Shown: piece after piece, positions 16,000-62,930 of the stretch
Numbering within the stretch: position 1 is the stretch's first letter
Layout: every line of letters begins with the position of its first letter
From: a virus
Taxonomy: Duplodnaviria > Heunggongvirae > Uroviricota > Caudoviricetes
Length of the DNA: 64,000 bases
IMG/VR virus record: IMGVR_UViG_3300048838_001248
Coordinates: 1-64,000 of that record
Strand: one strand, 5' to 3'
Program-made: the position numbers and the translations under genes
The notes under the pieces: generated by a model
Databases searched by the model: none
What the model saw: the letters and a program-made list of their open reading frames with translations, nothing else
What the model was told of the DNA's origin: nothing

Positions 16000-16021
16000 T
16001 CACACCCTGAAATAAACCAAA

Positions 16022-16047
16022 CCCCACCCAAAAAGTGGGGTTTTTTT
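16022..16047 (+). terminator. intrinsic terminator (T-run continues into next promoter -35)
   Basis: CCCCACCCAAAAAGTGGGG then T7. Confidence 0.6.
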
Positions 16048-16076
16048 GTAACATTTCTACTTGGTTTACGTATAAT
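16046..16076 (+). promoter_or_regulatory. phage ECF-type promoter fused to the upstream terminator
   Basis: Terminator T-run runs into the TTGTAAC box. Confidence 0.6.
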
Positions 16077-29574: not shown

Positions 29575-29606
29575 AAAAAACCCGGACATTGCTATCTGGG
29601 TTTTTA
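29575..29606. terminator. bidirectional intrinsic terminator between convergent blocks
   Basis: A6-CCCGGACATTGCTATCTGGG-T5. Confidence 0.55.
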
Positions 29607-33608: not shown

Positions 33609-34784
33609 TTATTCGATATCCACCAGTCTTGTCTCAATCATTTTCAGGAGTTCGGACATTGGTCTGCTTTCAGCTTCCGCTTTCATTGCAGTTTCAATTG
33701 GCAGTTGATTTGCCTTAACTTTGGCAATCAGTTCTTCAAGTTCTGCTTCCTCGTATTCCTGATAATCGCTTTCGAAGTACGCTTGTTCAATGATGTCAAT
33801 TTTACCATTGGTATAGGTTGCAACTGCGAAGGGGAAGTATTCACTCACACGCATTTTGCTGTGGTCATAATCCGGCACTGCAACAACATTGGCAGGGTTG
33901 ACGTAGCACACCAGTACTGCATTTCCACTGGAAGCAAACCTTTCAACATAAGTTGTTGCTCCAACATGCAGACCGTATGAACAATCCCTTGCAGGGTCGC
34001 TGTCACATGCATGGCGAGGCATCACTACTGGCTGACCGAGTACAATACTCATGGTCTTAGTGTGCTTGTCAGTGTAAATGGTTTCGGGTTCGTTTTTGTC
34101 ATCATTAAAGATTGACATAAACATGTCTCCGAGTTTGCCAAGGATTTCAACACCCTTTTCTTTTTCATCCCAACTTTCGGCTGTTTCGATTTTGGTAATG
34201 AAATAGTTTGTGGTATCTTCTTCCCTGTACACCACGTACTTGTTAGGACTGCATTTCCAGTCTTTCTTAACGTGAAGGTACTGGTTGCTCACGAATGCCG
34301 GAAGGTCGTTATCGGCTTTCTTTTTGTAATCAACAGCCTTGTACACAACCATATAACCGTTGTCAGTCAGAACAAAGTCATGGGTTGTAATGAAGTCAAA
34401 CAGACTTTCACGTACCCTGACATCCGGGTTAATCATCAGGAGTTTCCAGAAGTTGATAATGGCTTCCAGAGGATAGTTGTTCTCATGATATTCTTTCACG
34501 ACTTCAACCAGTGTTGCGGGAACGGGAGTATTGAAACCTGCAAGGTAAACCAATCCAGTTTCAGGGTCGGCTTCCAGACCTGCTTCCATTGCAATACGTG
34601 TGCGCTCATTGAGAAGCAAACGGACTGCTTTAAAATTATCCTCATTGGGATTTTCTTTTGCTTTCAGAACGGCACGAAACAGTTCATCAGCTTCTTTGGG
34701 TGAACCGCAGTTTTTCTTGTGAAGTTTACCTTCAATCGAAATGTTGACTACGTTACCTGTTTTGATTGCATTAATGTTTTTCAT
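33609..34784 (-). CDS. rIIB: rIIB-like protein
   Basis: CSYGLHVGATTYVERFASSGNAVLVCYVNPANVVAVP parallels T4 rIIB C..GLHV...F.SS..V..V.P..VV.P; directly downstream of rIIA. Confidence 0.7.
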   Translation of the reverse strand: MKNINAIKTGNVVNISIEGKLHKKNCGSPKEADELFRAVLKAKENPNEDNFKAVRLLLNERTRIAMEAGLEADPETGLVYLAGFNTPVPATLVEVVKEYHENNYPLEAIINFWKLLMINPDVRVRESLFDFITTHDFVLTDNGYMVVYKAVDYKKKADNDLPAFVSNQYLHVKKDWKCSPNKYVVYREEDTTNYFITKIETAESWDEKEKGVEILGKLGDMFMSIFNDDKNEPETIYTDKHTKTMSIVLGQPVVMPRHACDSDPARDCSYGLHVGATTYVERFASSGNAVLVCYVNPANVVAVPDYDHSKMRVSEYFPFAVATYTNGKIDIIEQAYFESDYQEYEEAELEELIAKVKANQLPIETAMKAEAESRPMSELLKMIETRLVDIE

Positions 34785-34823
34785 TTCAGTGTTTTTTAAG
34801 TTATTATTGTGTTTCTCTATGCA

Positions 34824-34879: not shown

Positions 34880-37174
34880 TTATAGCACCATCACTTTATT
34901 TAAAATGTCATACAGGGTATCATTTGCATTCTCCATGCTCCAAGGCAGATTAAGATAAGACAAGATTTTCTGATTATTGACCTGTAAATCCTGTATTTCT
35001 TTCATTAAACGCAATATGCGTTTCTGTTCAGGGGTCTGCTTAATATTGGTCAGGTCAAAATGTCTCGAAAGTTCTGATTTCATGTAACCAACATCCTTTT
35101 TACTTGAAGGTAGATTTTCAATGTAGGTTTTAATTTCGTCAACCTTTGCCTGATATTTGGGAGCATTGAGTTTTGAATAGTTAACATCTTTATAGAAGTT
35201 AGTAATACTATCCCACTGCTCGGACATTCCATGTGTCTGAAAATAGGACATTATGAAGTCAGTTTTTCTGTAAAGCATTTTGTTGTAAAACTGGCTGACA
35301 TGATATGCTTTCTTGCAGTACTCAAAGTACTTTACATTACCCTGTGCAACCATGATAAACATAATGCTATTCTTTTCCTTGCCGGAATAACCATTATTGA
35401 ATTTACCATTGTAATCAACATATCTCACAACTGCTTTGTTATCAAAGAGTTCACGAAACATATCACTTGCTCTTCTCAATTCATTTTCATTTTCCTGTGT
35501 GCCATAGAAGATAGGCATGTTATAATCGAATAACATCGACAAACTAATCCTTTCCTTACTATGACCACCTATGAATTTTACAGGTATGGTTAACTTCCTT
35601 AGTTCAGGAGACATTGATTTCTTGTTCTTCCTTGAAGCAATAAAATCTTCCGGTACTTCAAGTGTATCATAATCCTGTGCGTTTTCACGTACAATGCTAA
35701 AGTATTCTTCCTGCATGTCAATCAAAGACTGAACAAAAGCAATTGGTTTGCCGTTATCGTCTGTGGTTTTATCCATGTGTACATTAAACAGTTCGGCAAT
35801 TTCACTGCGCATCCAATTATTGGCAACATTGCGAAGTGTAACAATATGATACAGGTCATATTTATAACCTAAGTAAGCCTGTTTGATAACCTTACGGTTA
35901 AATTCATCGTTGACGTACAATAGATTTGAATTCTTTTTAAGTTCTTCGTAACCACCTTCGAATTCGTACTTTGATGATGAATACCTTGACCTTGCAGGTT
36001 TCTTGCCATAAGACTTGACTTCGAAGAAAAACTTGAACAACTGTCTGTCATTCGGCATTTTCATAAAGCTGTACCGGAAATTCGACAGGTCAACATCTGA
36101 TTGCTTAATGATGTTGCTAACGGTTAAGGACATTCCGTTTTTGAATTCCAATACACCAAAGTTGTGTTTCAGATTAAAGTAATCCTTTAAGTCAACTATG
36201 TTACTGTACTGTTTTACAAGCAGTTCTTTCACTTCTTCCTTTGCAGCTTCCAGTTTCTTTTTGAGAACCTTAATGGTTTTCTCGCTGTAATCCAGTTGTT
36301 CTCTGGAAGCAACAACACCTATGTCACCCACTTCGAGTTTCAAAGCAATAGGTAAACTGTAATCACTTGCTGATAATCCAAGCACACTATAATCAATAGG
36401 GTAAGCAACCCTACCAAGGCATACATGCATGTGATGTGAATACTCATTGCCCCTGTAAAGGAAGTTCTTTCCCCGGACAATCTGATACTCATTTGAGAGT
36501 GTTTGACCATTGTAATAGTCATCTTCAAAACCTTCAAAGACAACATTTTCAAAGTAGTACAATTGCTTTACCATTTCTTTGGAGAAGCTATTCAGGTCTT
36601 TTTCCAGTACTGGTATACGGATTTCAGTACCATTGCGTTCTGTTGTTGCTTCACTATGTAACAAGCTGATTTCAGGTGCTTCCTGACCTTCATAGATACA
36701 GTAATAATAACGTGTACCATTGAAGTTGGTAATAACATAAAAGCTGTTATCGTATTCACCTTCACCATGACCAGTACTGCGTTTGTAAGCCAATGGAGTT
36801 TTGCCACCAATACCGAAACCACCAATCTGTGTGTTGTCGCACCTTTTTGTGCTTTCGAAGTAAACACCATAGATGTTTTCAACCCTGTCAGGAGACATAC
36901 CAACACCATAATCAATGAATGATATATATATGGTATCGGTTTGTGGGTCTTTGGATTTCTTAATGACAACCGGAGAATTCACCTGTGCTTCGACATGTGA
37001 ATCAAAACAGTTACTGGTAATCTCACGGACAACCGTACCTATAGGATTACTGTAAATGTTTTTGGTAAAAAGCTGAAATACCATTGAGGTAGCATTCTCT
37101 GATAAGCGCATTTTCTTTGCACCTGTACTGGCTTCTGTTGCCTGTGTCGAGAGTTGTTTCAAGTTGATTTCCAT
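34880..37174 (-). CDS. rIIA: rIIA-like protein (GHKL ATPase)
   Basis: N box EITSNCFDS, G1 IDYGVGMS, G2 GGFGIGGK match T4 rIIA (ELITNMIDA / RDFGPGMS / GGFGLGSK); 764 aa. Confidence 0.8.
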   Translation of the reverse strand: MEINLKQLSTQATEASTGAKKMRLSENATSMVFQLFTKNIYSNPIGTVVREITSNCFDSHVEAQVNSPVVIKKSKDPQTDTIYISFIDYGVGMSPDRVENIYGVYFESTKRCDNTQIGGFGIGGKTPLAYKRSTGHGEGEYDNSFYVITNFNGTRYYYCIYEGQEAPEISLLHSEATTERNGTEIRIPVLEKDLNSFSKEMVKQLYYFENVVFEGFEDDYYNGQTLSNEYQIVRGKNFLYRGNEYSHHMHVCLGRVAYPIDYSVLGLSASDYSLPIALKLEVGDIGVVASREQLDYSEKTIKVLKKKLEAAKEEVKELLVKQYSNIVDLKDYFNLKHNFGVLEFKNGMSLTVSNIIKQSDVDLSNFRYSFMKMPNDRQLFKFFFEVKSYGKKPARSRYSSSKYEFEGGYEELKKNSNLLYVNDEFNRKVIKQAYLGYKYDLYHIVTLRNVANNWMRSEIAELFNVHMDKTTDDNGKPIAFVQSLIDMQEEYFSIVRENAQDYDTLEVPEDFIASRKNKKSMSPELRKLTIPVKFIGGHSKERISLSMLFDYNMPIFYGTQENENELRRASDMFRELFDNKAVVRYVDYNGKFNNGYSGKEKNSIMFIMVAQGNVKYFEYCKKAYHVSQFYNKMLYRKTDFIMSYFQTHGMSEQWDSITNFYKDVNYSKLNAPKYQAKVDEIKTYIENLPSSKKDVGYMKSELSRHFDLTNIKQTPEQKRILRLMKEIQDLQVNNQKILSYLNLPWSMENANDTLYDILNKVMVL

Positions 37175-37219
37175 AATGTTTGGTTTTTATTGGTTAATAA
37201 TATTGTGTTTCTCTATGCA

Positions 37220-39875: not shown

Positions 39876-40076
39876 TTCGTCATCATCAAAATCATACTCG
39901 GTAACCTCACCCTCGAAAGTAAATTCGTTTTCTTCATCGTCATCATCATTAGCAAGTCTGCTGAGTTCTGCAAGACTAAGACTTTCAAGAAATGCGAGTT
40001 CCTGTGGGTTATCATTATCACCATTTTTATTTAAAATGGAGTCGATAAGCTGCTGTCTTTGAGATTTTTTTGCCAT
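39870..40076 (-). CDS. small highly acidic protein
   Basis: 68 aa, C-terminal DDDDEENEFTFEGEVTEYDFDDDEL. Confidence 0.45.
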   Translation of the reverse strand: MAKKSQRQQLIDSILNKNGDNDNPQELAFLESLSLAELSRLANDDDDEENEFTFEGEVTEYDFDDDEL

Positions 40077-40112: not shown

Positions 40113-40149
40113 ATTATACGAAAAAACCCCGGAAATGTTACATCCGGGG
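40113..40149 (-). promoter_or_regulatory. fused terminator-promoter cassette
   Basis: Hairpin CCCCGGAAATGTTACATCCGGGG carries the -35; the A6 spacer is the terminator T-tract on minus; -10 ATTATACG. Confidence 0.6.
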
Positions 40150-40157
40150 TCTTACTT

Positions 40158-40816: not shown

Positions 40817-40858
40817 ATTATACGGAAAAATGCGGTGAATGTTACAAACAAACACCGC
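40817..40858 (-). promoter_or_regulatory. fused terminator-promoter cassette
   Basis: Hairpin GCGGTG-AATGTTACAAACAAA-CACCGC contains the -35. Confidence 0.55.
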
Positions 40859-40878
40859 ATTTTATGCATTGATTAATT

Positions 40879-41636: not shown

Positions 41637-41670
41637 ATTATACGAAAAAAACCCTGTAAATGTTACAGGG
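41637..41670 (-). promoter_or_regulatory. fused terminator-promoter cassette
   Basis: Hairpin CCCTGTAAATGTTACAGGG contains the -35; A7 spacer. Confidence 0.55.
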
Positions 41671-41682
41671 TTCTTAGTTTAT

Positions 41683-42513
41683 TTATGCTACTTCCAGTTC
41701 TTGTACATTGATGTATTCAGCACTGTTATTAACATCATTAGGTTGGATAACGAACACTGAATTAAGTACTTGCTTTTCAGCTTCTCGGTTTGCTATGCGT
41801 TTCCATTTCAGACCTACAATCACACCGTTTGCATCTGCAACCCTGTAGTCTGTTAAGTCACCGTTAACAACCTTATAACCTTTGTACAATGCAGGTAGTT
41901 GTTTTTCATTCTTAACATTGAATACCATTGCAATATTGTGTCCGGCTTCAAGAACTGCTTCACATAGTTCCCAATTACGACCTGTGTATGAGAGTGTTAA
42001 ATGATAGTTCGAAGGCTTGTTGTTGAATTTCAGGGGATTTTTGGTATAATCGTAAAACTGAACATCAGGAAAGATTTCGAAGATATTCTTATTGTCAACT
42101 CTTACATTCTGCCAGTCAACATCAGAGGTACAATTCAAACGAACGCTGAAATAAAAACCTTCTGCCTGTGCTTTGGCTTTGGCAACATTGATTTCAGCTA
42201 TAAGCCATGCCATAAAAAATTCAGGTTTTTCATAAAGCATACGAGTTTTTTTGCTTCTGCTGTCCTGTGTTTTGGTCTTACCTGCAAGAATTTCCATTCC
42301 TGCCCTGCCACTTGTATTAAGGCAACCCATTCTGCATTCCGGTGTACTGAAAGCACAAGTATTATAACCACTTGTACGTGCCGGAGCAAGATATAAACCA
42401 TATGTATGTTGGTTAACCTTGCCGTTTTTTGCGAGTTTTGCACTTGCATTGACTTTACCTAAGTAAGATAAGCCAGTCTGTTTCATTGCTTTGCCGATTG
42501 TTGTAAATGTCAT
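41683..42513 (-). CDS. hypothetical protein (Cys cluster CAFSTPECRMGC)
   Basis: 276-aa ORF. Confidence 0.55.
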   Translation of the reverse strand: MTFTTIGKAMKQTGLSYLGKVNASAKLAKNGKVNQHTYGLYLAPARTSGYNTCAFSTPECRMGCLNTSGRAGMEILAGKTKTQDSRSKKTRMLYEKPEFFMAWLIAEINVAKAKAQAEGFYFSVRLNCTSDVDWQNVRVDNKNIFEIFPDVQFYDYTKNPLKFNNKPSNYHLTLSYTGRNWELCEAVLEAGHNIAMVFNVKNEKQLPALYKGYKVVNGDLTDYRVADANGVIVGLKWKRIANREAEKQVLNSVFVIQPNDVNNSAEYINVQELEVA

Positions 42514-42776: not shown

Positions 42777-42807
42777 ATTATACGGATTTTAATTAAAATG
42801 GTTACAG
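42777..42807 (-). promoter_or_regulatory. phage promoter (minus)
   Basis: Spacer contains TTTTAATTAAAA. Confidence 0.55.
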
Positions 42808-42873
42808 TCCTACACGATAAACTGCATGATAAATTGCATTAAAAATGTTACAATTTTGGTAGTAATACTACCT

Positions 42874-42946
42874 AATTTAGAATAATTCTAAAGTCAGAGT
42901 ATAAGGTAGGGTCGGATTACTGCACCCAAGTTTTACCCTGCCTACT
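42874..42946 (-). ncRNA. candidate small RNA, family copy 2
   Basis: Same core as copy 1 (AATTTAGAATAATTCTAAAGTCAGAGTATAAGGTAGGGTCGGAT); own promoter 42948-42978. Confidence 0.4.
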
Positions 42947-42947
42947 T

Positions 42948-42978
42948 ATTATACGGATTTTAATTAAAATGGTTACAA
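42948..42978 (-). promoter_or_regulatory. phage promoter of sRNA copy 2
   Basis: Spacer contains TTTTAATTAAAA. Confidence 0.55.
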
Positions 42979-43002
42979 AAAAAGTGGTCGAAATTGACCA
43001 CT
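42977..43002 (-). terminator. intrinsic terminator fused to the promoter -35
   Basis: AGTGGTCGAAATTGACCACT with T6 on minus running into TTGTAAC. Confidence 0.5.
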
Positions 43003-43013
43003 TTAATTAAAAG

Positions 43014-43507: not shown

Positions 43508-43538
43508 ATTATACGGATTTTAATTAAAAAGGTTACAA
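43508..43538 (-). promoter_or_regulatory. phage promoter (minus)
   Basis: ATTATACG-N16-GTTACAA. Confidence 0.55.
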
Positions 43539-43896: not shown

Positions 43897-43934
43897 ATTA
43901 TACGAAAAAACCCCTGAATTGTTACACTCAGGGG
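43897..43934 (-). promoter_or_regulatory. fused terminator-promoter cassette
   Basis: Hairpin CCCCTGAATTGTTACACTCAGGGG contains the -35. Confidence 0.55.
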
Positions 43935-43942
43935 TTTGCATC

Positions 43943-45085
43943 TTAATACTCGAAGTATTTTTTGTATAATCCAATTATGTCTGTTTCTGCCATATCTTTA
44001 AACCTTATGGCTGACAACCGTTCCATTCTCCAACCAACTTTGAGCATTCCGTTGTGACACAACGCACCATACTCATAGATTTTCTTTATCTGAATTGGTG
44101 TCAGGTCAACATTCTTCCTATTAATCTTTTCATTCAAGCAACCTGCAAACTGTACATTGCTGTCATGTATTTTAACCCAACCTTGCTGTTCAAGCCATGC
44201 ATCAGGATTTACCTCATCACCATCAGGAATAATTCCCTTATCCTGCAATGCACTTGCAATCTGAATGTGAAGCATATTTGCAATCTCACCATTGAGAGCA
44301 TAATAATCGCCTTCCGGTGACAACCAACCCGCACTGTAATTATCCATGATATTAACAGGTTCAATGCCTTCGGACATTATCTTGTCGATTTCCTGTGCAG
44401 CTTCAATATAGTTATCCAATATTTCACTTTCTTTCTGAACTTCGGACAAATCACAACGGAGCAATTCAGTGAGTTTTTCTGTTACAAGCTGTAAAACCCT
44501 ACCACTTTCAGAACGATTGGCAACAAGTTCAACTTCATCAGGATAAGTCTTTTTCATCCAATCCATTACGGACATTATCTTCACTGATTTCTCAATATAA
44601 CGTTTGGTAACGTCAATTAGCAGAGCAAGTTGTGATATTTCCTCACTTTCCATCAGGTCGTCAATGATATGTTTGCTGTCACCTGTGGTGATAAAATCAA
44701 TTATCATTGAGTAGTCATAAGTCCTGTACAGTTTCTTGTACTTCATGTGGTACAACATTTCATCAATGGCTTTTTTCAGTCCATTACCATTGGTAGTGAT
44801 TTCACGAATGTTTCCTATGCACCAATCTTTCACGTCAATTCTTGGATATTCATCATCAATACCTTCTTCCCTTTGACCAACCAAAAGCTGTTGACTTTCT
44901 TCATCAACGTGCATAACATAATCGCCTTTCAAGACTTTGAGTTGAAGTTCAGGGGGCAAATCACTTAGCGTATCAAGTGCTTTCTGAATGTTGTGATTAT
45001 AGAGTAAGTGTTCCTGTGCAATCTGCATGAGTAGTTTACCGAAACCTTCTCCAATTCTGAAATGTAATTCTTTAAGTTCTGCCAT
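43943..45085 (-). CDS. hypothetical protein
   Basis: Start at MAELKEL. The track's upstream extension reads through the promoter and a terminator. Confidence 0.55.
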   Translation of the reverse strand: MAELKELHFRIGEGFGKLLMQIAQEHLLYNHNIQKALDTLSDLPPELQLKVLKGDYVMHVDEESQQLLVGQREEGIDDEYPRIDVKDWCIGNIREITTNGNGLKKAIDEMLYHMKYKKLYRTYDYSMIIDFITTGDSKHIIDDLMESEEISQLALLIDVTKRYIEKSVKIMSVMDWMKKTYPDEVELVANRSESGRVLQLVTEKLTELLRCDLSEVQKESEILDNYIEAAQEIDKIMSEGIEPVNIMDNYSAGWLSPEGDYYALNGEIANMLHIQIASALQDKGIIPDGDEVNPDAWLEQQGWVKIHDSNVQFAGCLNEKINRKNVDLTPIQIKKIYEYGALCHNGMLKVGWRMERLSAIRFKDMAETDIIGLYKKYFEY

Positions 45086-45110
45086 TGCTTTATATGTATT
45101 GGTTATACTG

Positions 45111-45141
45111 CTTATACGGAATTTAATTAAAAAGGTTACAA
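45111..45141 (-). promoter_or_regulatory. phage promoter (minus)
   Basis: CTTATACG-N16-GTTACAA. Confidence 0.55.
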
Positions 45142-45151
45142 GAGATGAAAT

Positions 45152-45176
45152 AAAAAACCCCCGCAACCTTTCGGGG
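45152..45176 (-). terminator. intrinsic terminator
   Basis: CCCCG-CAACCTTT-CGGGG with T6 on minus. Confidence 0.5.
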
Positions 45177-45185
45177 CGAGGGGAA

Positions 45186-45490
45186 AAATCTATTCTGGCA
45201 TATGGTTCGGCTACGGGAAACCGGACTAACATATAACACTCAGGGGTGTCCGGTAGAAACATATAAAGCACCGAGGGCATTTTTGGGTTGGTTACCATTT
45301 ATAGAGCCATAAAGGGTGCGGAATTTTGCCTGAACCTACCTTGCAAGGATTTTGAAGAACGGATTTTTATTATCGTTTATGTCTATTATATTAAGTTATT
45401 AATTAAAAAGTTGGTTTTACGGAGAACCTTTGTTTCGTGCTTCCATGTTAACGGCTGTTTTAGGCATTAATAATTAAGAACTATCTTCAT
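45186..45490 (-). ncRNA. candidate ncRNA or leader unit
   Basis: Promoter 45494-45525; intrinsic terminator 45152-45176; only a 16-codon minus-strand ORF. Confidence 0.3.
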
Positions 45491-45493
45491 GCA

Positions 45494-45525
45494 ATTATAC
45501 GAAAACTTTTTGAATTTTGTTACAG
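45494..45525 (-). promoter_or_regulatory. phage promoter (minus) of non-coding unit
   Basis: ATTATACG-N17-GTTACAG. Confidence 0.45.
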
Positions 45526-46328: not shown

Positions 46329-46359
46329 CTTATACGTATTTTAATTAAAATGGTTACAT
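46329..46359 (-). promoter_or_regulatory. phage promoter (minus)
   Basis: CTTATACG-N16-GTTACAT. Confidence 0.55.
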
Positions 46360-46800: not shown

Positions 46801-46839
46801 GTTATACGTAATGAACCCGGAAATGTTACAATCCGGGTT
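46801..46839 (-). promoter_or_regulatory. fused terminator-promoter cassette
   Basis: Hairpin AACCCGGAAATGTTACAATCCGGGTT contains the -35. Confidence 0.55.
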
Positions 46840-46846
46840 CAATTTT

Positions 46847-47643: not shown

Positions 47644-47674
47644 ATTATACGTAAATCAGGACATTATGTTACAA
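47644..47674 (-). promoter_or_regulatory. phage promoter (minus)
   Basis: ATTATACG-N16-GTTACAA; terminator hairpin just upstream at 47679-47700. Confidence 0.55.
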
Positions 47675-47719
47675 AAAAAAGGGGTGAACATTCACCCCTT
47701 TTATATCTCAGTACATTGG

Positions 47720-48635: not shown

Positions 48636-48666
48636 ATTATACGGACTTTAATTAAAAAGGTTACAC
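48636..48666 (-). promoter_or_regulatory. phage promoter (minus)
   Basis: ATTATACG-N16-GTTACAC. Confidence 0.55.
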
Positions 48667-48708
48667 GAATATACAATTATTTTTAATTAAAAGCGAAAAT
48701 TGTTTCTT

Positions 48709-48796
48709 TATTTAGACTAAATCTAAACTCAGGATATAAGGTAGGTTGGAGTCTACCCTCTGCGCACCTTCGGAGTGCGAACCTCCTTTCTTTACT
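48709..48796 (-). ncRNA. candidate small RNA, family copy 3
   Basis: TATTTAGACTAAATCTAAACTCAGGATATAAGGTAGGTTGGAGTC core plus UUCG-type hairpin; own promoter 48798-48828. Confidence 0.4.
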
Positions 48797-48797
48797 T

Positions 48798-48828
48798 ATT
48801 ATACGGTTTTTAATTAAAAAGGTTACAA
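48798..48828 (-). promoter_or_regulatory. phage promoter of sRNA copy 3
   Basis: ATTATACG-N16-GTTACAA. Confidence 0.55.
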
Positions 48829-49949: not shown

Positions 49950-49980
49950 CTTATACGGTTTTTAATTAAAAAGGTTACAT
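49950..49980 (-). promoter_or_regulatory. phage promoter (minus)
   Basis: CTTATACG-N16-GTTACAT. Confidence 0.55.
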
Positions 49981-50363: not shown

Positions 50364-50403
50364 ATTATACGAAAACTGCCCCAGATTGTTACAGTCTGGA
50401 GCA
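50364..50403 (-). promoter_or_regulatory. phage promoter with overlapping hairpin
   Basis: ATTATACG-N16-GTTACAG; imperfect hairpin CTGCCCCAGAT..GTCTGGAGCAG around the -35. Confidence 0.5.
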
Positions 50404-50428
50404 GTTCTTTTTAATTAAAAACGCAAAA

Positions 50429-50788: not shown

Positions 50789-50819
50789 ATTATACGTTTT
50801 AAATAAAAAAAGGTTACAG
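50789..50819 (-). promoter_or_regulatory. phage promoter (minus)
   Basis: ATTATACG-N16-GTTACAG. Confidence 0.55.
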
Positions 50820-50855
50820 AAACCTGCAACCCTTTTAATTAAAAACGCAATGTTA

Positions 50856-52469: not shown

Positions 52470-53024
52470 TTATGCGTTCACTAACTGTGCCTGTAACATT
52501 GTTCTGCACCTGTTTATCATTCCTTTGACAGTTCCAAGCGGTACATTGCAAATCTCTGCAATTTCGCTATATTCTTTTTCATGCATAAAATACAGGTTTG
52601 CAATACGTCTGTATTTAGGTTTCAGACTTGCAAATGCTTTCAAAATTGCTTCCCTTAGTTCTCTGTTGTTTGAAACATCATTGCCGTCAGTACCAACAAA
52701 TTCAAACATTTCTTTTCCGGTTTCATCAACAAAATCAGAAACATGAACATCTGTTGCATGGTATTTGTTTGCCCTGAAAAAATCAATAACTGCATTGTTA
52801 GCAATAAAATGTAACCATGTAGTCATTTTTGATACACTTTCATTATACTTGTCAAAGTGTTTGTATGCGTTAACAAATACCTTTGCTGTTATATCCTCTG
52901 CATCATTGATATTGTTAACTTTCGTATTTACATAGTGCAAAATTTGATTGTAAAACTTTGCGTAAACCTGATTAAAATTCATTGTTTCAGTCGTTTTCAT
53001 ATCTTTGCGTTTTAAGTTAAACAT
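52470..53024 (-). CDS. ECF-type sigma-70 family RNA polymerase sigma factor
   Basis: Region 2 DAEDITAKVFVNAYKHFDKY..TWLHFIANNAVIDFFR; region 4 YRRIANLYFMHEKEYSEIAEICNVPLGTVKGMINRCR. Track start is GTG at 53033; ATG at 53024 is more likely. Confidence 0.75.
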   Translation of the reverse strand: MFNLKRKDMKTTETMNFNQVYAKFYNQILHYVNTKVNNINDAEDITAKVFVNAYKHFDKYNESVSKMTTWLHFIANNAVIDFFRANKYHATDVHVSDFVDETGKEMFEFVGTDGNDVSNNRELREAILKAFASLKPKYRRIANLYFMHEKEYSEIAEICNVPLGTVKGMINRCRTMLQAQLVNA

Positions 53025-53037
53025 ATAATTCACGTAT

Positions 53038-53063
53038 CAAATGTACTATATTTAACGTTACAA
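53038..53063 (-). promoter_or_regulatory. promoter region of sigma factor gene (host-type -7 box overlapping a degenerate phage-type motif)
   Basis: Minus strand TTTGTTTGTAACG..TACATTTG-ATAC-GTG: TAcaTTTG -7 box plus upstream TTTG; the phage-like -10 is degenerate (TACGTGAATTAT). Confidence 0.4.
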
Positions 53064-53236
53064 ACAAACAAAAGTTTCATTATTTTGTATCAAAGTTACA
53101 AAGTTACCCTAATTTATATTCATTCTAAATAAGCCAATACTATACCATATATATAGGAATTATTTTTATTCATAACTTGCTGATAATCAGAACAGAATAA
53201 AATAAATGCAATTTTAATTAAAAATAGTGTACCCAA

Positions 53237-53267
53237 AATGTAACCAAAACAATTTTTTACCGTATCA
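53237..53267 (+). promoter_or_regulatory. weak phage-type promoter
   Basis: ATGTAAC-N16-CGTATCAC upstream of gene 53297. Confidence 0.3.
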
Positions 53268-53296
53268 CTATATATAAACCAATAAATTTTAAAAAC

Positions 53297-61770: not shown

Positions 61771-61801
61771 TTGTAACAAATTAAAAAATTATACGTATAA
61801 T
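61771..61801 (+). promoter_or_regulatory. phage ECF-type promoter driving the tRNA-like RNA operon
   Basis: TTGTAAC-N16-CGTATAAT; no ORF downstream for about 1.2 kb. Confidence 0.6.
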
Positions 61802-62114: not shown

Positions 62115-62210
62115 GGTGTTGTATGCCGATGATGGCAAGGCAACTTGTTGGTGAAGGGTCGAACCGAAGTACCACAAGACATCACGCTGGTTCAATTCCA
62201 GCCAGCACCA
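62115..62210 (+). tRNA. tRNA-like element (96 nt, anticodon arm not resolved)
   Basis: 7-bp acceptor GGTGTTG/CAGCACC with one G-U; D-stem TGCC/GGCA; perfect T-arm GCTGG-TTCAATT-CCAGC; discriminator A. Confidence 0.35.
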
Positions 62211-62792: not shown

Positions 62793-62865
62793 TGCGATAT
62801 GACGCAGTTGGTTAGCGTGCCCTCGCTCAAGAGGGAAGTCACGGGTTCGAATCCCGTTATCGCAA
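62793..62865 (+). tRNA. tRNA (73 nt) with non-canonical 6-nt anticodon loop GCTCAA
   Basis: Perfect 7-bp acceptor TGCGATA/TATCGCA; D-arm ACGC-AGTTGGTTA-GCGT; anticodon stem CCCTC/GAGGG; T-arm ACGGG-TTCGAAT-CCCGT; discriminator A. Confidence 0.55.
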
Positions 62866-62930
62866 CAAATTTGTTTGGGGTCTGCTTCGGCAGACAGGTG
62901 GTTTACAATTAGGATGCTTAACCTAACCCA

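What the first reader, a model, noticed from the sequence alone, without database searches (positions are those of the whole stretch)
40113..40149. Fused terminator-promoter cassettes: the terminator hairpin contains the -35 box and its T-tract forms the promoter spacer
At least eight intergenic sites place an intrinsic-terminator hairpin so that its loop or stem carries the GTTACA -35 element. The A/T run that follows is part of the 16-nt spacer before CGTATAAT. The sites are 16022-16076 (+) and, on the minus strand, 40113-40149, 40817-40858, 41637-41670, 42948-43002, 43897-43934, 46801-46839 and 50364-50403. One roughly 45-nt element therefore terminates the upstream transcript and starts the next one. 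Folding of the hairpin in DNA or RNA could also occlude the -35, which would couple termination to initiation.
Basis: seen in the sequence. Interest (0 to 1): 0.6.

Follow-up and report, generated by a model that had tools for sequence, protein, structure and literature searches.

The report
Overlapping terminator–promoter cassettes in a jumbo phage
In this uncultivated giant phage, several short gaps between genes carry a transcription stop hairpin built around the recognition boxes of the next gene's promoter, a space-saving arrangement already described in T4-like phages, though the promoter here looks like one read by a sigma factor the phage encodes itself.

Summary
The window carries 42 copies of GTAAC-N16/17-CGTATAA where 0 are expected. 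In 7 promoters a strong GC-rich hairpin (-15 to -21 kcal/mol) straddles the -35 and its T-run fills the spacer; a column-shuffle null expects 0.01. Two (16022-16076 and 42948-43002) have the hairpin just upstream of the -35. One embedded site (50789-50836) was missed, and 46801-46839 has no T-run.

Related jumbo phages show the same architecture: 87 of 516 promoter sites against 0.8 expected. Stems differ at orthologous genes with compensatory changes, and G·U pairs favour the sense RNA. That supports terminators acting on the upstream transcript, not DNA cruciforms.

The promoter has ECF-sigma architecture (AAC at -35, CGT at -10, N16 spacer, -35-proximal T-tract). A SigW-like ECF sigma gene sits at 52470-53033(-), itself behind a Bacteroidota-type TAnnTTTG box.

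The closest known kind is the PeSL terminator/promoter cassette of T4-like phages. A PeSL-style one-gene indel with its junction inside the cassette is seen between two relatives. Termination, start sites and sigma use remain inferred. Nothing supports the proposed coupling by -35 occlusion.

The parts
40113..40151 (-). Focal embedded cassette. Hairpin 40151-40125 with tGTAACatt in a 9-nt loop (GTAAC at 40141-40137), T6 at 40126-40121, CGTATAAT at 40120-40113. It lies between the stop of the 56-aa ORF (40158) and the ATG at 40076.
   Evidence: (RNA -18.8 kcal/mol, z -3.7)
40817..40862 (-). Embedded cassette. Hairpin 40862-40828 with an inner TGTT/AACA helix that pairs part of the -35. GTAAC at 40845-40841, T5, CGTATAAT at 40824-40817.
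   Evidence: (-20.4, z -6.1)
41637..41673 (-). Embedded cassette directly after the GP88-like gene. Stem CCCTGTAA / TTACAGGG includes the -35, with a 3-nt loop. T7, then CGTATAAT at 41644-41637. Spacer N17.
   Evidence: (-15.8, z -5.2)
43897..43937 (-). Embedded cassette. Hairpin 43937-43908 with GTAACA in a 6-nt loop, T6, CGTATAAT at 43904-43897.
   Evidence: (-19.7, z -5.2); orthologous sites with compensated stems in L094 and L085
46801..46841 (-). Hairpin straddling the -35 (46841-46812) but with no T-run (TTCATTA). The -10 is CGTATAAC at 46808-46801. A doubtful terminator.
   Evidence: -18.7, z -4.3
50364..50407 (-). Embedded cassette. 12-13 bp stem including one U·G pair, GTAAC in the loop, T4, CGTATAAT at 50371-50364.
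   Evidence: (-21.1, z -7.3)
50789..50836 (-). The -35 GTAAC (50817-50813) lies in the 3' arm, and T7 forms the first half of the spacer. CGTATAAT at 50796-50789.
   Evidence: (-15.4, z -4.8)
16019..16076 (+). Adjacent, not embedded. Terminator hairpin 16019-16043, whose T7 runs into tGTAAC (16048-16052). CGTATAAT at 16069-16076.
42948..43004 (-). Adjacent, not embedded. Hairpin 43004-42981, T7 running into GTAAC (42976-42972). CGTATAAT at 42955-42948.
47644..47701 (-). Hairpin 47701-47678, T8 running into GTAAC. CGTATAAT at 47651-47644.
52470..53033 (-). Phage-encoded ECF (group 4) sigma factor, SigW-like, at the head of the promoter-rich minus-strand cluster. It is the candidate reader of the TGTAAC-N16-CGTATAAT promoters. 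It has no such promoter itself, but TACATTTG lies 21 nt and TAACTTTG 74 nt (a second copy is adjacent) before the start.

Best explanation
These are composite terminator-promoter cassettes of a gene-dense, module-by-module transcribed region of an uncultivated jumbo phage that carries rIIA and rIIB and probably infects Bacteroidota. Each small gene has its own promoter of the form TGTAAC-N16-CGTATAAT.

In about one promoter in six, the intrinsic terminator of the preceding gene is folded into the same DNA. The C-rich 5' arm occupies -33..-24, the -35 with its T-tract sits in the loop or is paired into the stem, the G-rich 3' arm occupies -13..-4, and the T-run fills the rest of the spacer up to the CG.

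The hairpin acts in the RNA of the upstream transcript, for termination and probably for 3'-end protection. The same DNA, as a duplex, serves as the promoter of the next gene. The overlap is possible because ECF-type promoters constrain only the -35, the spacer length and the -10, not the spacer sequence. The promoter is most likely read by host core RNA polymerase carrying the phage's own SigW-like ECF sigma, whose gene is transcribed from a host-type TAnnTTTG promoter.

Because the cassettes repeat, they also serve as recombination points for gain and loss of single genes, as PeSLs do.

Shown here: the motifs, the hairpins, their statistics, their conservation, the sigma gene and the cassette-bounded indel. 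Inferred: actual termination, the start sites and which sigma is used.
For: - Promoter set: 42 GTAAC-N16/17-CGTATAA against 0 expected, all oriented with the local genes.
- Hairpins: 7 sites at or below -15 kcal/mol in -40..-1 against 0.01 expected; z from -3.7 to -7.3.
- Position: each hairpin begins within about 25 nt of the upstream stop codon.
- Relatives: 87 of 516 unique promoter sites at or below -12 against 0.8 expected. The 3' arm ends mostly at -6..-2, with A-rich -40..-35, C-rich -31..-28, G-rich -10..-8 and T-rich -6..-1. A T-run of at least 4 occurs in 74 of 106.
- Structure conserved, sequence not: orthologous downstream genes carry embedded hairpins with different, compensated stems, for example CCCCGGA/TCCGGGG against CCCCAGAG/CTCTGGGG.
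- RNA-level selection: with strand-neutral selection, the sense RNA is more stable in 86 cases against 23, with 106 G·U pairs against 32.
- ECF reading: Pfam Sigma70_r2 plus r4_2; NCBIfam ECF superfamily above cut-off, best model SigW; best solved structure B. subtilis SigW 5wuq at 1.9e-18 over the full length.
- SigW-type promoters are tGAAACnTTTt ... CGTA (PMC5758882). A CGT box at -10 is taken as the ECF signature in flavobacteria (PMC9723704).
- T frequency at -15..-13 is 0.69-0.80.
- Sigma homologues lie in synteny in 13 promoter-positive relative loci and in none of the loci that have at most two promoter-like matches.
- TAnnTTTG lies upstream of the sigma gene in 10 of 12 cases against 0.94 expected. 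Only 8 of 119 genes have an SD-like 4-mer.
- Shuffling: the L109 cassette is a chimera of two L106 cassettes, with the junction in TTTTCGTATAATCAC and one gene gained or lost. The window and L082 share a backbone interspersed with unshared promoter-led small ORFs.
Against: - There are no transcript-end data, so termination efficiency is unknown.
- Loops of 9-10 nt (40120 and 46808) are large for efficient intrinsic terminators.
- Site 46808 has no T-run, and 30% of embedded hairpins in relatives have a T-run shorter than 4.
- The -10 is a perfect TATAAT, so a housekeeping-type sigma cannot be excluded.
- The host is inferred only from motif and leader composition.
- The co-occurrence of sigma and promoter is confounded by shared ancestry.
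- The sense/antisense stability test can be influenced by A/T-tract flanks.
Confidence: 0.72

Rival explanations
1. Coupled switch. Hairpin folding in DNA or RNA masks the -35, so that termination of the upstream transcript controls firing of the downstream promoter. A variant of this idea: polymerase released in the T-run is recaptured on the spot.
For: The terminator T-run ends 0-6 nt from the -10 in most embedded cassettes, so a terminating polymerase does sit on the promoter. The register is strikingly uniform.
Against: - The RNA hairpin belongs to the upstream transcript and cannot mask duplex DNA.
- G·U asymmetry (106 against 32) and greater sense-strand stability argue against selection for a two-strand cruciform.
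- DNA hairpin energies are only -8.8 to -10.5 kcal/mol with large loops.
- 36 of 43 promoters lack the hairpin.
- Terminator offsets range from 1 to 71 nt.
- Orthologous genes switch freely between embedded, adjacent and no hairpin.
Confidence: 0.08
2. The same cassettes, but the promoters are ordinary early promoters read by the host primary sigma (-35 GTAACA, 17 nt, -10 TATAAT), as in T4-type PeSLs. The ECF sigma gene would serve another gene class.
For: A perfect TATAAT with 17-nt spacing. GTAACA matches TTGACA at 4 of 6 positions. The promoters head rIIA, rIIB and many small ORFs, typical early genes.
Against: - The invariant CG before TATAAT is not the TGn extended -10.
- AAC plus CGT plus N16 plus AACnTTT is the ECF pattern.
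- Leaders lack SD, and the sigma gene carries TAnnTTTG, which points to a Bacteroidota host. The primary sigma of that phylum does not use TTGACA/TATAAT.
- TAnnTTTG is absent from these promoters.
Confidence: 0.15
3. The hairpins are mainly 3'-end stabilisers or RNase processing barriers on read-through polycistronic RNA, not efficient terminators.
For: Large loops; one site with no T-run (46808); about 30% of embedded hairpins in relatives with short T-runs.
Against: Most have GC-rich stems immediately followed by 4-8 T and preceded by A-runs, the classic intrinsic-terminator form. The same hairpin type closes the convergent gene clusters at 29578-29603.
Confidence: 0.12
4. The inverted repeats are protein operators, or hairpin promoter elements of the N4 virion-polymerase type.
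For: They are inverted repeats centred on a promoter element.
Against: Stem sequences are unrelated between sites and between orthologues, so there is no common operator. Only 7 of 43 promoters have the hairpin. Loops vary from 3 to 12 nt. No phage RNA polymerase was seen in the window.
Confidence: 0.02

Closest known systems
PeSL (promoter-early stem-loop) composite terminator/promoter cassettes of T4-like phages (Arbiol et al. 2010, PMC2839356; Comeau et al. 2014, PMC4122927)
   Same: - Intergenic cassettes of about 60-100 nt running from an upstream stop codon to the next start codon.
- They combine a strong conserved promoter, an AT-rich upstream stretch and a stem-loop that terminates upstream transcription.
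[quoted passage not shown]
- They are concentrated among small variable ORFs.
- Recombination between cassettes adds or removes single genes, seen here between L106 and L109.
   Different: - The promoter here has ECF architecture (TGTAAC-N16-CGTATAAT) and is probably served by a phage sigma, not a host sigma-70-like early promoter.
- There is no Shine-Dalgarno element; a conserved TATAACCAA-type leader takes its place.
- The dominant register places the -35 inside the hairpin with the T-run as spacer, whereas in phi1/RB49 the commonest positions are between the boxes or over the -10.
- The stem polarity is C-run then G-run.
- The phage clade and the probable host phylum (Bacteroidota) are different.
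- Function was shown by lacZ fusions for PeSLs and is not shown here.
Bacillus subtilis SigW-type ECF promoters (tGAAACnTTTt-N-CGTA; Gaballa et al. 2018, PMC5758882)
   Same: AAC at -35, CGTA at -10, a 16-nt spacer, and a T-tract just downstream of the -35. The phage sigma is most similar to SigW among solved structures and NCBIfam models.
   Different: The phage -35 is mostly TGTAAC (TGAAAC in some relatives). The -10 is extended to CGTATAAT. The sigma scores far below the SigW equivalog cut-off (90.8 against 209 bits), so it is an ECF sigma but not a SigW orthologue. No anti-sigma partner was looked for.
Classical intrinsic (Rho-independent) terminators
   Same: A GC-rich stem, a 3' T-run, an upstream A-run, and a location just after stop codons.
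   Different: The loop or stem must accommodate tGTAACnTTT, giving loops of up to 9-10 nt when the -35 is left unpaired. The U-tract is followed directly by the -10 of the next promoter.

Membership tests
Intrinsic terminator | Stable GC-rich stem-loop on the coding strand | tested here: met
   RNA MFE -15.4 to -21.1 kcal/mol, z -3.7 to -7.3, at the 7 embedded sites.
Intrinsic terminator | U/T-tract immediately 3' of the stem | tested here: met
   T4-T7 at 6 of 7 embedded sites. Not met at 46801-46841 (TTCATTA). In relatives, a T-run of at least 4 in 74 of 106.
Intrinsic terminator | Located just downstream of a stop codon of a same-strand gene | tested here: met
   All 7 start within about 25 nt of the upstream stop codon.
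Intrinsic terminator | RNA 3' ends formed in the U-tract | not testable with these tools
   No transcript data are available. Term-seq or in vitro transcription is needed.
ECF (group 4) sigma-dependent promoter | AAC motif in the -35 and CGT motif in the -10 | tested here: met
   GTAAC and CGTATAA are exact in 42 sites, and one more site has TGTATAAT. Literature.
ECF (group 4) sigma-dependent promoter | Tight spacer length (14-17 bp) and close adherence to consensus | tested here: met
   N16 in 40 sites and N17 in 2.
ECF (group 4) sigma-dependent promoter | -35-proximal T-tract (AACnTTT) | tested here: met
   T frequency 0.69-0.80 at -15..-13 in 433 related sites, with or without the hairpin.
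ECF (group 4) sigma-dependent promoter | A cognate two-domain (sigma2 plus sigma4) sigma is available | tested here: met
   Gene 52470-53033(-): Sigma70_r2 1.2e-12, r4_2 5.6e-10; ECF superfamily 84.7 bits against a cut-off of 42.9; SigW 5wuq 1.9e-18. Syntenic in relatives.
ECF (group 4) sigma-dependent promoter | Transcription depends on that sigma | not testable with these tools
   Needs in vitro transcription or genetics.
PeSL cassette (T4-like phages) | Composite of a conserved promoter and a stem-loop in one intergenic element, with variable stem-loop position that includes overlap with the boxes | tested here: met
   Offsets of 1-71 nt; 7 embedded, 3 abutting, the others upstream. Definition.
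PeSL cassette (T4-like phages) | Sigma-70-like early promoter followed by a Shine-Dalgarno sequence | tested here: inconclusive
   The -10 is TATAAT, but the overall pattern is ECF-type. SD is absent, with only 8 of 119 genes having an SD-like 4-mer.
PeSL cassette (T4-like phages) | Enriched among small variable ORFs in plastic regions | tested here: met
   Comparison with L082 shows a conserved backbone with many unshared promoter-led small ORFs.
PeSL cassette (T4-like phages) | Recombination between cassettes creates single-gene indels | tested here: met
   L106 against L109: a one-gene indel of about 625 bp with the junction within TTTTCGTATAATCAC and a chimeric cassette. Seen in relatives, not in the window itself.
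PeSL cassette (T4-like phages) | Excised mini-circles | not testable with these tools
   Needs inverse PCR on phage DNA.
N4-type hairpin promoter | A hairpin is a required, conserved part of every promoter | tested here: not met
   Only 7 of 43 promoters have a hairpin. Stems and loops are not conserved.

The most novel reading that the evidence does not exclude
The fused register is not only compaction. By ending the upstream transcript 0-6 nt from the -10, it hands core polymerase directly to the phage ECF sigma for re-initiation at the same spot, or conversely lets read-through polymerase transiently shut the promoter. Each cassette would then act as a relay that sets the relative dosage of neighbouring genes. 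The evidence does not exclude this: the register is uniform and the T-run abuts the -10. Nothing positively supports it.
Probability: 0.08. Interest if true: 0.7.

Novelty: new variant of a known kind. Interest (0 to 1): 0.4.

Why it matters
This extends the PeSL principle, where one short element ends a transcript, starts the next and serves as a recombination joint for gene modules. The extension runs from T4-like coliphages and vibriophages to an uncultivated jumbo-phage clade that probably infects Bacteroidota.

It also suggests the principle works with a phage-encoded ECF sigma regulon of at least 43 promoters in 64 kb. That gives a concrete, testable transcription programme: a host TAnnTTTG promoter drives the phage sigma, which drives the TGTAAC-N16-CGTATAAT genes. 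It offers compact terminator/promoter parts for Bacteroidota synthetic biology as well.

The fused cassette itself is not a new mechanism.

Tried and rejected
- Megablast of 8 kb against INPHARED phages found no match. The sequence is metagenomic, JGI 3300048839.
- The sigma protein as a single query on IMG/VR found no relatives. Homologues were found instead by local tblastn in loci already fetched.
- Rfam at gathering threshold on the whole window found only two tRNAs. Rfam at E-value threshold on 42.5-49 kb gave only chance-level hits. The short non-coding units after some promoters therefore remain unassigned.
- TAnnTTTG is not enriched window-wide, 77 against 96 expected. It is informative only in its position upstream of the sigma gene.
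- The first sense/antisense G·U test was biased because hairpins had been selected on the sense fold. It was repeated with strand-neutral selection.
- Operator, cruciform and N4-type hairpin-promoter readings were rejected because stems are not conserved, the strands are asymmetric, and most promoters lack the hairpin.
- Not run because they would not change the verdict: structure prediction, large protein-database searches and the genome-contig scan.

Full report
**What the window is.** The window has about 35% GC and is packed with small same-strand ORFs. It encodes rIIA (34880-37174, minus strand), rIIB (33609-34784, minus strand) and an RNA ligase whose closest relatives are in jumbo phages. 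It has no near-identical record among deposited phages. It comes from a JGI metagenome contig. Relatives recovered through the GP88-like protein (41683-42513, minus strand) sit on viral contigs of 300-365 kb and on many metagenome contigs. This is an uncultivated jumbo phage clade.

**The observation.** The focal sequence on the minus strand reads gACCCCGGAtgtaacattTCCGGGGTtttttCGTATAAT.
GTTACA-N-TATAAT has no match, and the element is GTAACA.
- GTAAC-N16/17-CGTATAA occurs 42 times where 0.00 are expected. Every copy points the same way as the local genes. One more site has TGTATAAT, giving 43 promoters.
- Folding positions -40..-1 of the 37 promoters ending in CGTATAA[TC] or TGTATAAT gives a bimodal result. 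Seven sites fold at or below -15.0 kcal/mol and all others at or above -8.0. Promoters rebuilt by shuffling columns give 0.01 such sites. None of the six further promoters ending in CGTATAAG carries an embedded hairpin.
- The seven are at 40120, 40824, 41644, 43904, 46808, 50371 and 50796, given as the coordinate of the C of CGTATAAT. With the tool's own shuffles they have z-scores from -3.7 to -7.3.
- Site 46801-46841 has the hairpin but no T-run, and its -10 is CGTATAAC.

**Anatomy.** In six of the seven embedded sites the 3' arm ends 2-4 nt before the CG.
- In 106 embedded hairpins from relatives, the 3' end peaks at -6..-2, with a minor peak at -11/-10.
- Across those 106, the profile runs: A-run at -40..-35, C-rich 5' arm at -31..-28, then tGTAAC and its T-tract, G-rich 3' arm at -10..-8, and T-run at -6..-1.
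- The -35 pentamer is entirely in the loop in 46, in the 3' arm in 35, in the 5' arm in 19 and in both arms in 6.
- When the -35 is unpaired, the loop must hold tGTAACnTT(T), which explains loops of 9-10 nt.
- Many sites instead pair GTAA with the TTAC made by the T-tract, giving 3-4 nt loops. Site 41644 (CCCTGTAAcatTTACAGGG) is an example.

**Are the hairpins terminators?** Four lines of sequence evidence support this.
- Each starts within about 25 nt of the stop codon of the preceding same-strand gene.
- In a census of terminator-like hairpins, 17 of 18 on the sense strand of the minus-strand cluster lie 1-71 nt upstream of one of these promoters. The offsets are about 1, 3, 3, 3, 4, 4, 12, 25, 26, 35, 35, 38, 39, about 40, 50, 55 and 71 nt. 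The same hairpin type closes the convergent clusters at 29578-29603.
- At orthologous downstream genes in relatives, the embedded hairpin is kept but with different stems and paired changes. For the focal gene family the stems are CCCCGGA/TCCGGGG against CCCCAGAG/CTCTGGGG. For the 43904 family they are CCCCTGA/TCAGGGG, CCCCGTTA/TAACGGGG and CCCCGGCAA/TTGTCGGGG. Other orthologues have an abutting terminator or none.
- When hairpins are selected without regard to strand, the sense RNA is the more stable in 86 cases against 23. It uses 106 G·U pairs against 32.

Taken together, this indicates selection on the RNA of the upstream transcript and not on a DNA cruciform. Actual 3' ends were not measured.

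**What kind of promoter it is.** The invariant CG, the AAC at -35, the fixed 16-nt spacing and the T-tract right after the -35 (T at 0.69-0.80 at -15..-13) are the signature of ECF sigma promoters.
- B. subtilis SigW promoters are tGAAACnTTTt ... CGTA, and ECF spacers span 14-17 bp (PMC5758882).
- A conserved CGT box at -10 is taken as the ECF mark in Flavobacterium (PMC9723704).
- Some relatives use TGAAAC at the -35.
- A Pfam sweep of 84 window ORFs found one protein with Sigma70_r2 and r4_2. It was located at 52470-53033 on the minus strand.
- That protein passes the NCBIfam ECF superfamily cut-off, and its best model is SigW. Its best solved relative is B. subtilis SigW 5wuq, at 1.9e-18 over the full length.
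- The gene heads the promoter-rich minus-strand cluster. It has syntenic homologues in 13 relative loci, all of which carry the promoter. No locus with at most two promoter-like matches has one.
- The sigma gene itself has no such promoter. In 10 of 12 relatives a sense TAnnTTTG lies within 80 nt of its start, against 0.94 expected. TAnnTTTG is the -7 box of the Bacteroidota primary sigma.
- Only 8 of 119 genes have an SD-like 4-mer, and leaders are A-rich, as in Bacteroidota.

The most economical model is that host polymerase transcribes the sigma gene, and the phage sigma then drives the TGTAAC-N16-CGTATAAT genes. This is inferred. A housekeeping-type reading (TATAAT with 17-nt spacing) is kept as a rival.

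**Comparison with what is known.** Composite terminator/promoter cassettes of this sort are known as PeSLs in T4-like phages.
- Arbiol et al. describe five classes by stem-loop position, including between the boxes and overlapping either box. They showed promoter and terminator function with lacZ fusions and proposed PeSL-mediated gene shuffling (PMC2839356; PMC4122927).
- The shuffling feature was tested here. L106 and L109 are 98% identical, but L106 carries one extra gene of about 625 bp. L109's single cassette matches L106 cassette A up to TTTTTCGTATAATCAC and L106 cassette B from there on.
- The window and its closest relative L082 share a backbone interspersed with unshared small ORFs, each with its own promoter.
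- The differences from PeSLs are the ECF-type promoter and probable phage sigma, the absence of SD, the dominant register with the -35 inside the hairpin, and the phage clade and host.

**The coupling idea.** Nothing supports occlusion of the -35 by folding.
- The hairpin forms on the upstream RNA.
- DNA hairpin energies are modest, -8.8 to -10.5 kcal/mol.
- The strand asymmetry argues against cruciforms.
- 36 of 43 promoters do without a hairpin, and orthologues switch between arrangements.
- A polymerase terminating in the T-run does sit on the promoter, so transient interference or local recycling cannot be excluded. I give that 0.08.

**Verdict.** The feature is real and statistically solid, and it is conserved as an architecture across a phage clade. 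It is best explained as intrinsic terminators overlapped with ECF-type promoters in PeSL-like cassettes. It is a new variant of a known kind. The fused cassette itself is of moderate interest. The phage ECF-sigma regulon that it exposes is the more useful lead.

Noticed in passing
52470-53033 (-): A phage-encoded ECF sigma factor, closest to B. subtilis SigW among solved structures, at the head of the promoter-rich cluster. It is conserved in synteny in relatives, and L007 has two copies.
   Followed up: yes
53034-53296 (intergenic, minus-strand sense); L-loci: The sigma gene is preceded by Bacteroidota-type -7 boxes (TACATTTG; a tandem TAACTTTG TAACTTTG) and not by the phage promoter. 10 of 12 relatives show TAnnTTTG within 80 nt of the start. 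Together with the near absence of SD motifs (8 of 119 genes), this points to a Bacteroidota host.
   Followed up: partly
L106:1770-2579 versus L109:1256-1386: Two contigs 98% identical differ by one gene. The indel junction lies inside the shared TTTTCGTATAATCAC of two cassettes, and the L109 cassette is a chimera of both.
   Followed up: yes
45085-45298 and 45112-45182 (-): The 451-aa ORF 43943-45298 is over-extended. A terminator (45182-45158) and a promoter (GTAAC at 45139, CGTATAAG at 45118-45111) lie inside its 5' end, and the real start is probably the ATG at 45085.
   Followed up: partly
45158-45493 (-); 42806-42947 (-); about 48650-48797 (-): Promoters at 45501, 42955 and 48805 are followed by short stretches with no convincing ORF but with stable stems. 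The 42955 stretch is conserved in L003:1865. These may be small RNAs. There is no Rfam match.
   Followed up: partly
51820-51793 and 52461-52434 (-); 37600-37566 and 48888-48856 (-): Two pairs of nearly identical terminator hairpins follow unrelated genes, consistent with cassettes being copied or exchanged within the genome.
   Followed up: no
for example 42778-42805, 42949-42976, 43509-43536, 45112-45139, 46330-46357, 48637-48664, 48799-48826, 49951-49978 (-): A subfamily of promoters shares an almost identical spacer, GTAACC(A/T)TTTTAATTAAAA(T/A)(C/A)CGTATAA. The palindrome TTTTAATTAAAA also recurs just after stop codons, and it puts stop codons in several frames on both strands.
   Followed up: no
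about 3-15 nt after CGTATAAT at many promoters, for example 40817, 42542, 43508, 48636, 50789: A conserved leader, (A/T)(G/A)TATAACCAA(A/T)AC or TGTACCAAAAC, follows the -10. L007 and L008 use CTTAAACAAACAC instead. It may be a start-site or translation-initiation signal in an SD-less system.
   Followed up: no
34800-34823 and 37196-37219 (-): The rIIA and rIIB promoters are followed by the same leader, TGCATAGAGAAACACAATA. Promoters 45501 and 61794 begin similarly (TGCAtGAAGA, TGCAcAGAAGA).
   Followed up: no
62115-62210 (+) and 62793-62866 (+): Two tRNA genes by Rfam. ARAGORN reports only the second and could not assign its anticodon. The first is 96 nt long, so it has a long arm or an insertion.
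   Followed up: no
61788-61801: CGTATAAT occurs on both strands, overlapping in the palindrome ATTATACGTATAAT. Only the plus-strand copy has the GTAAC -35.
   Followed up: no
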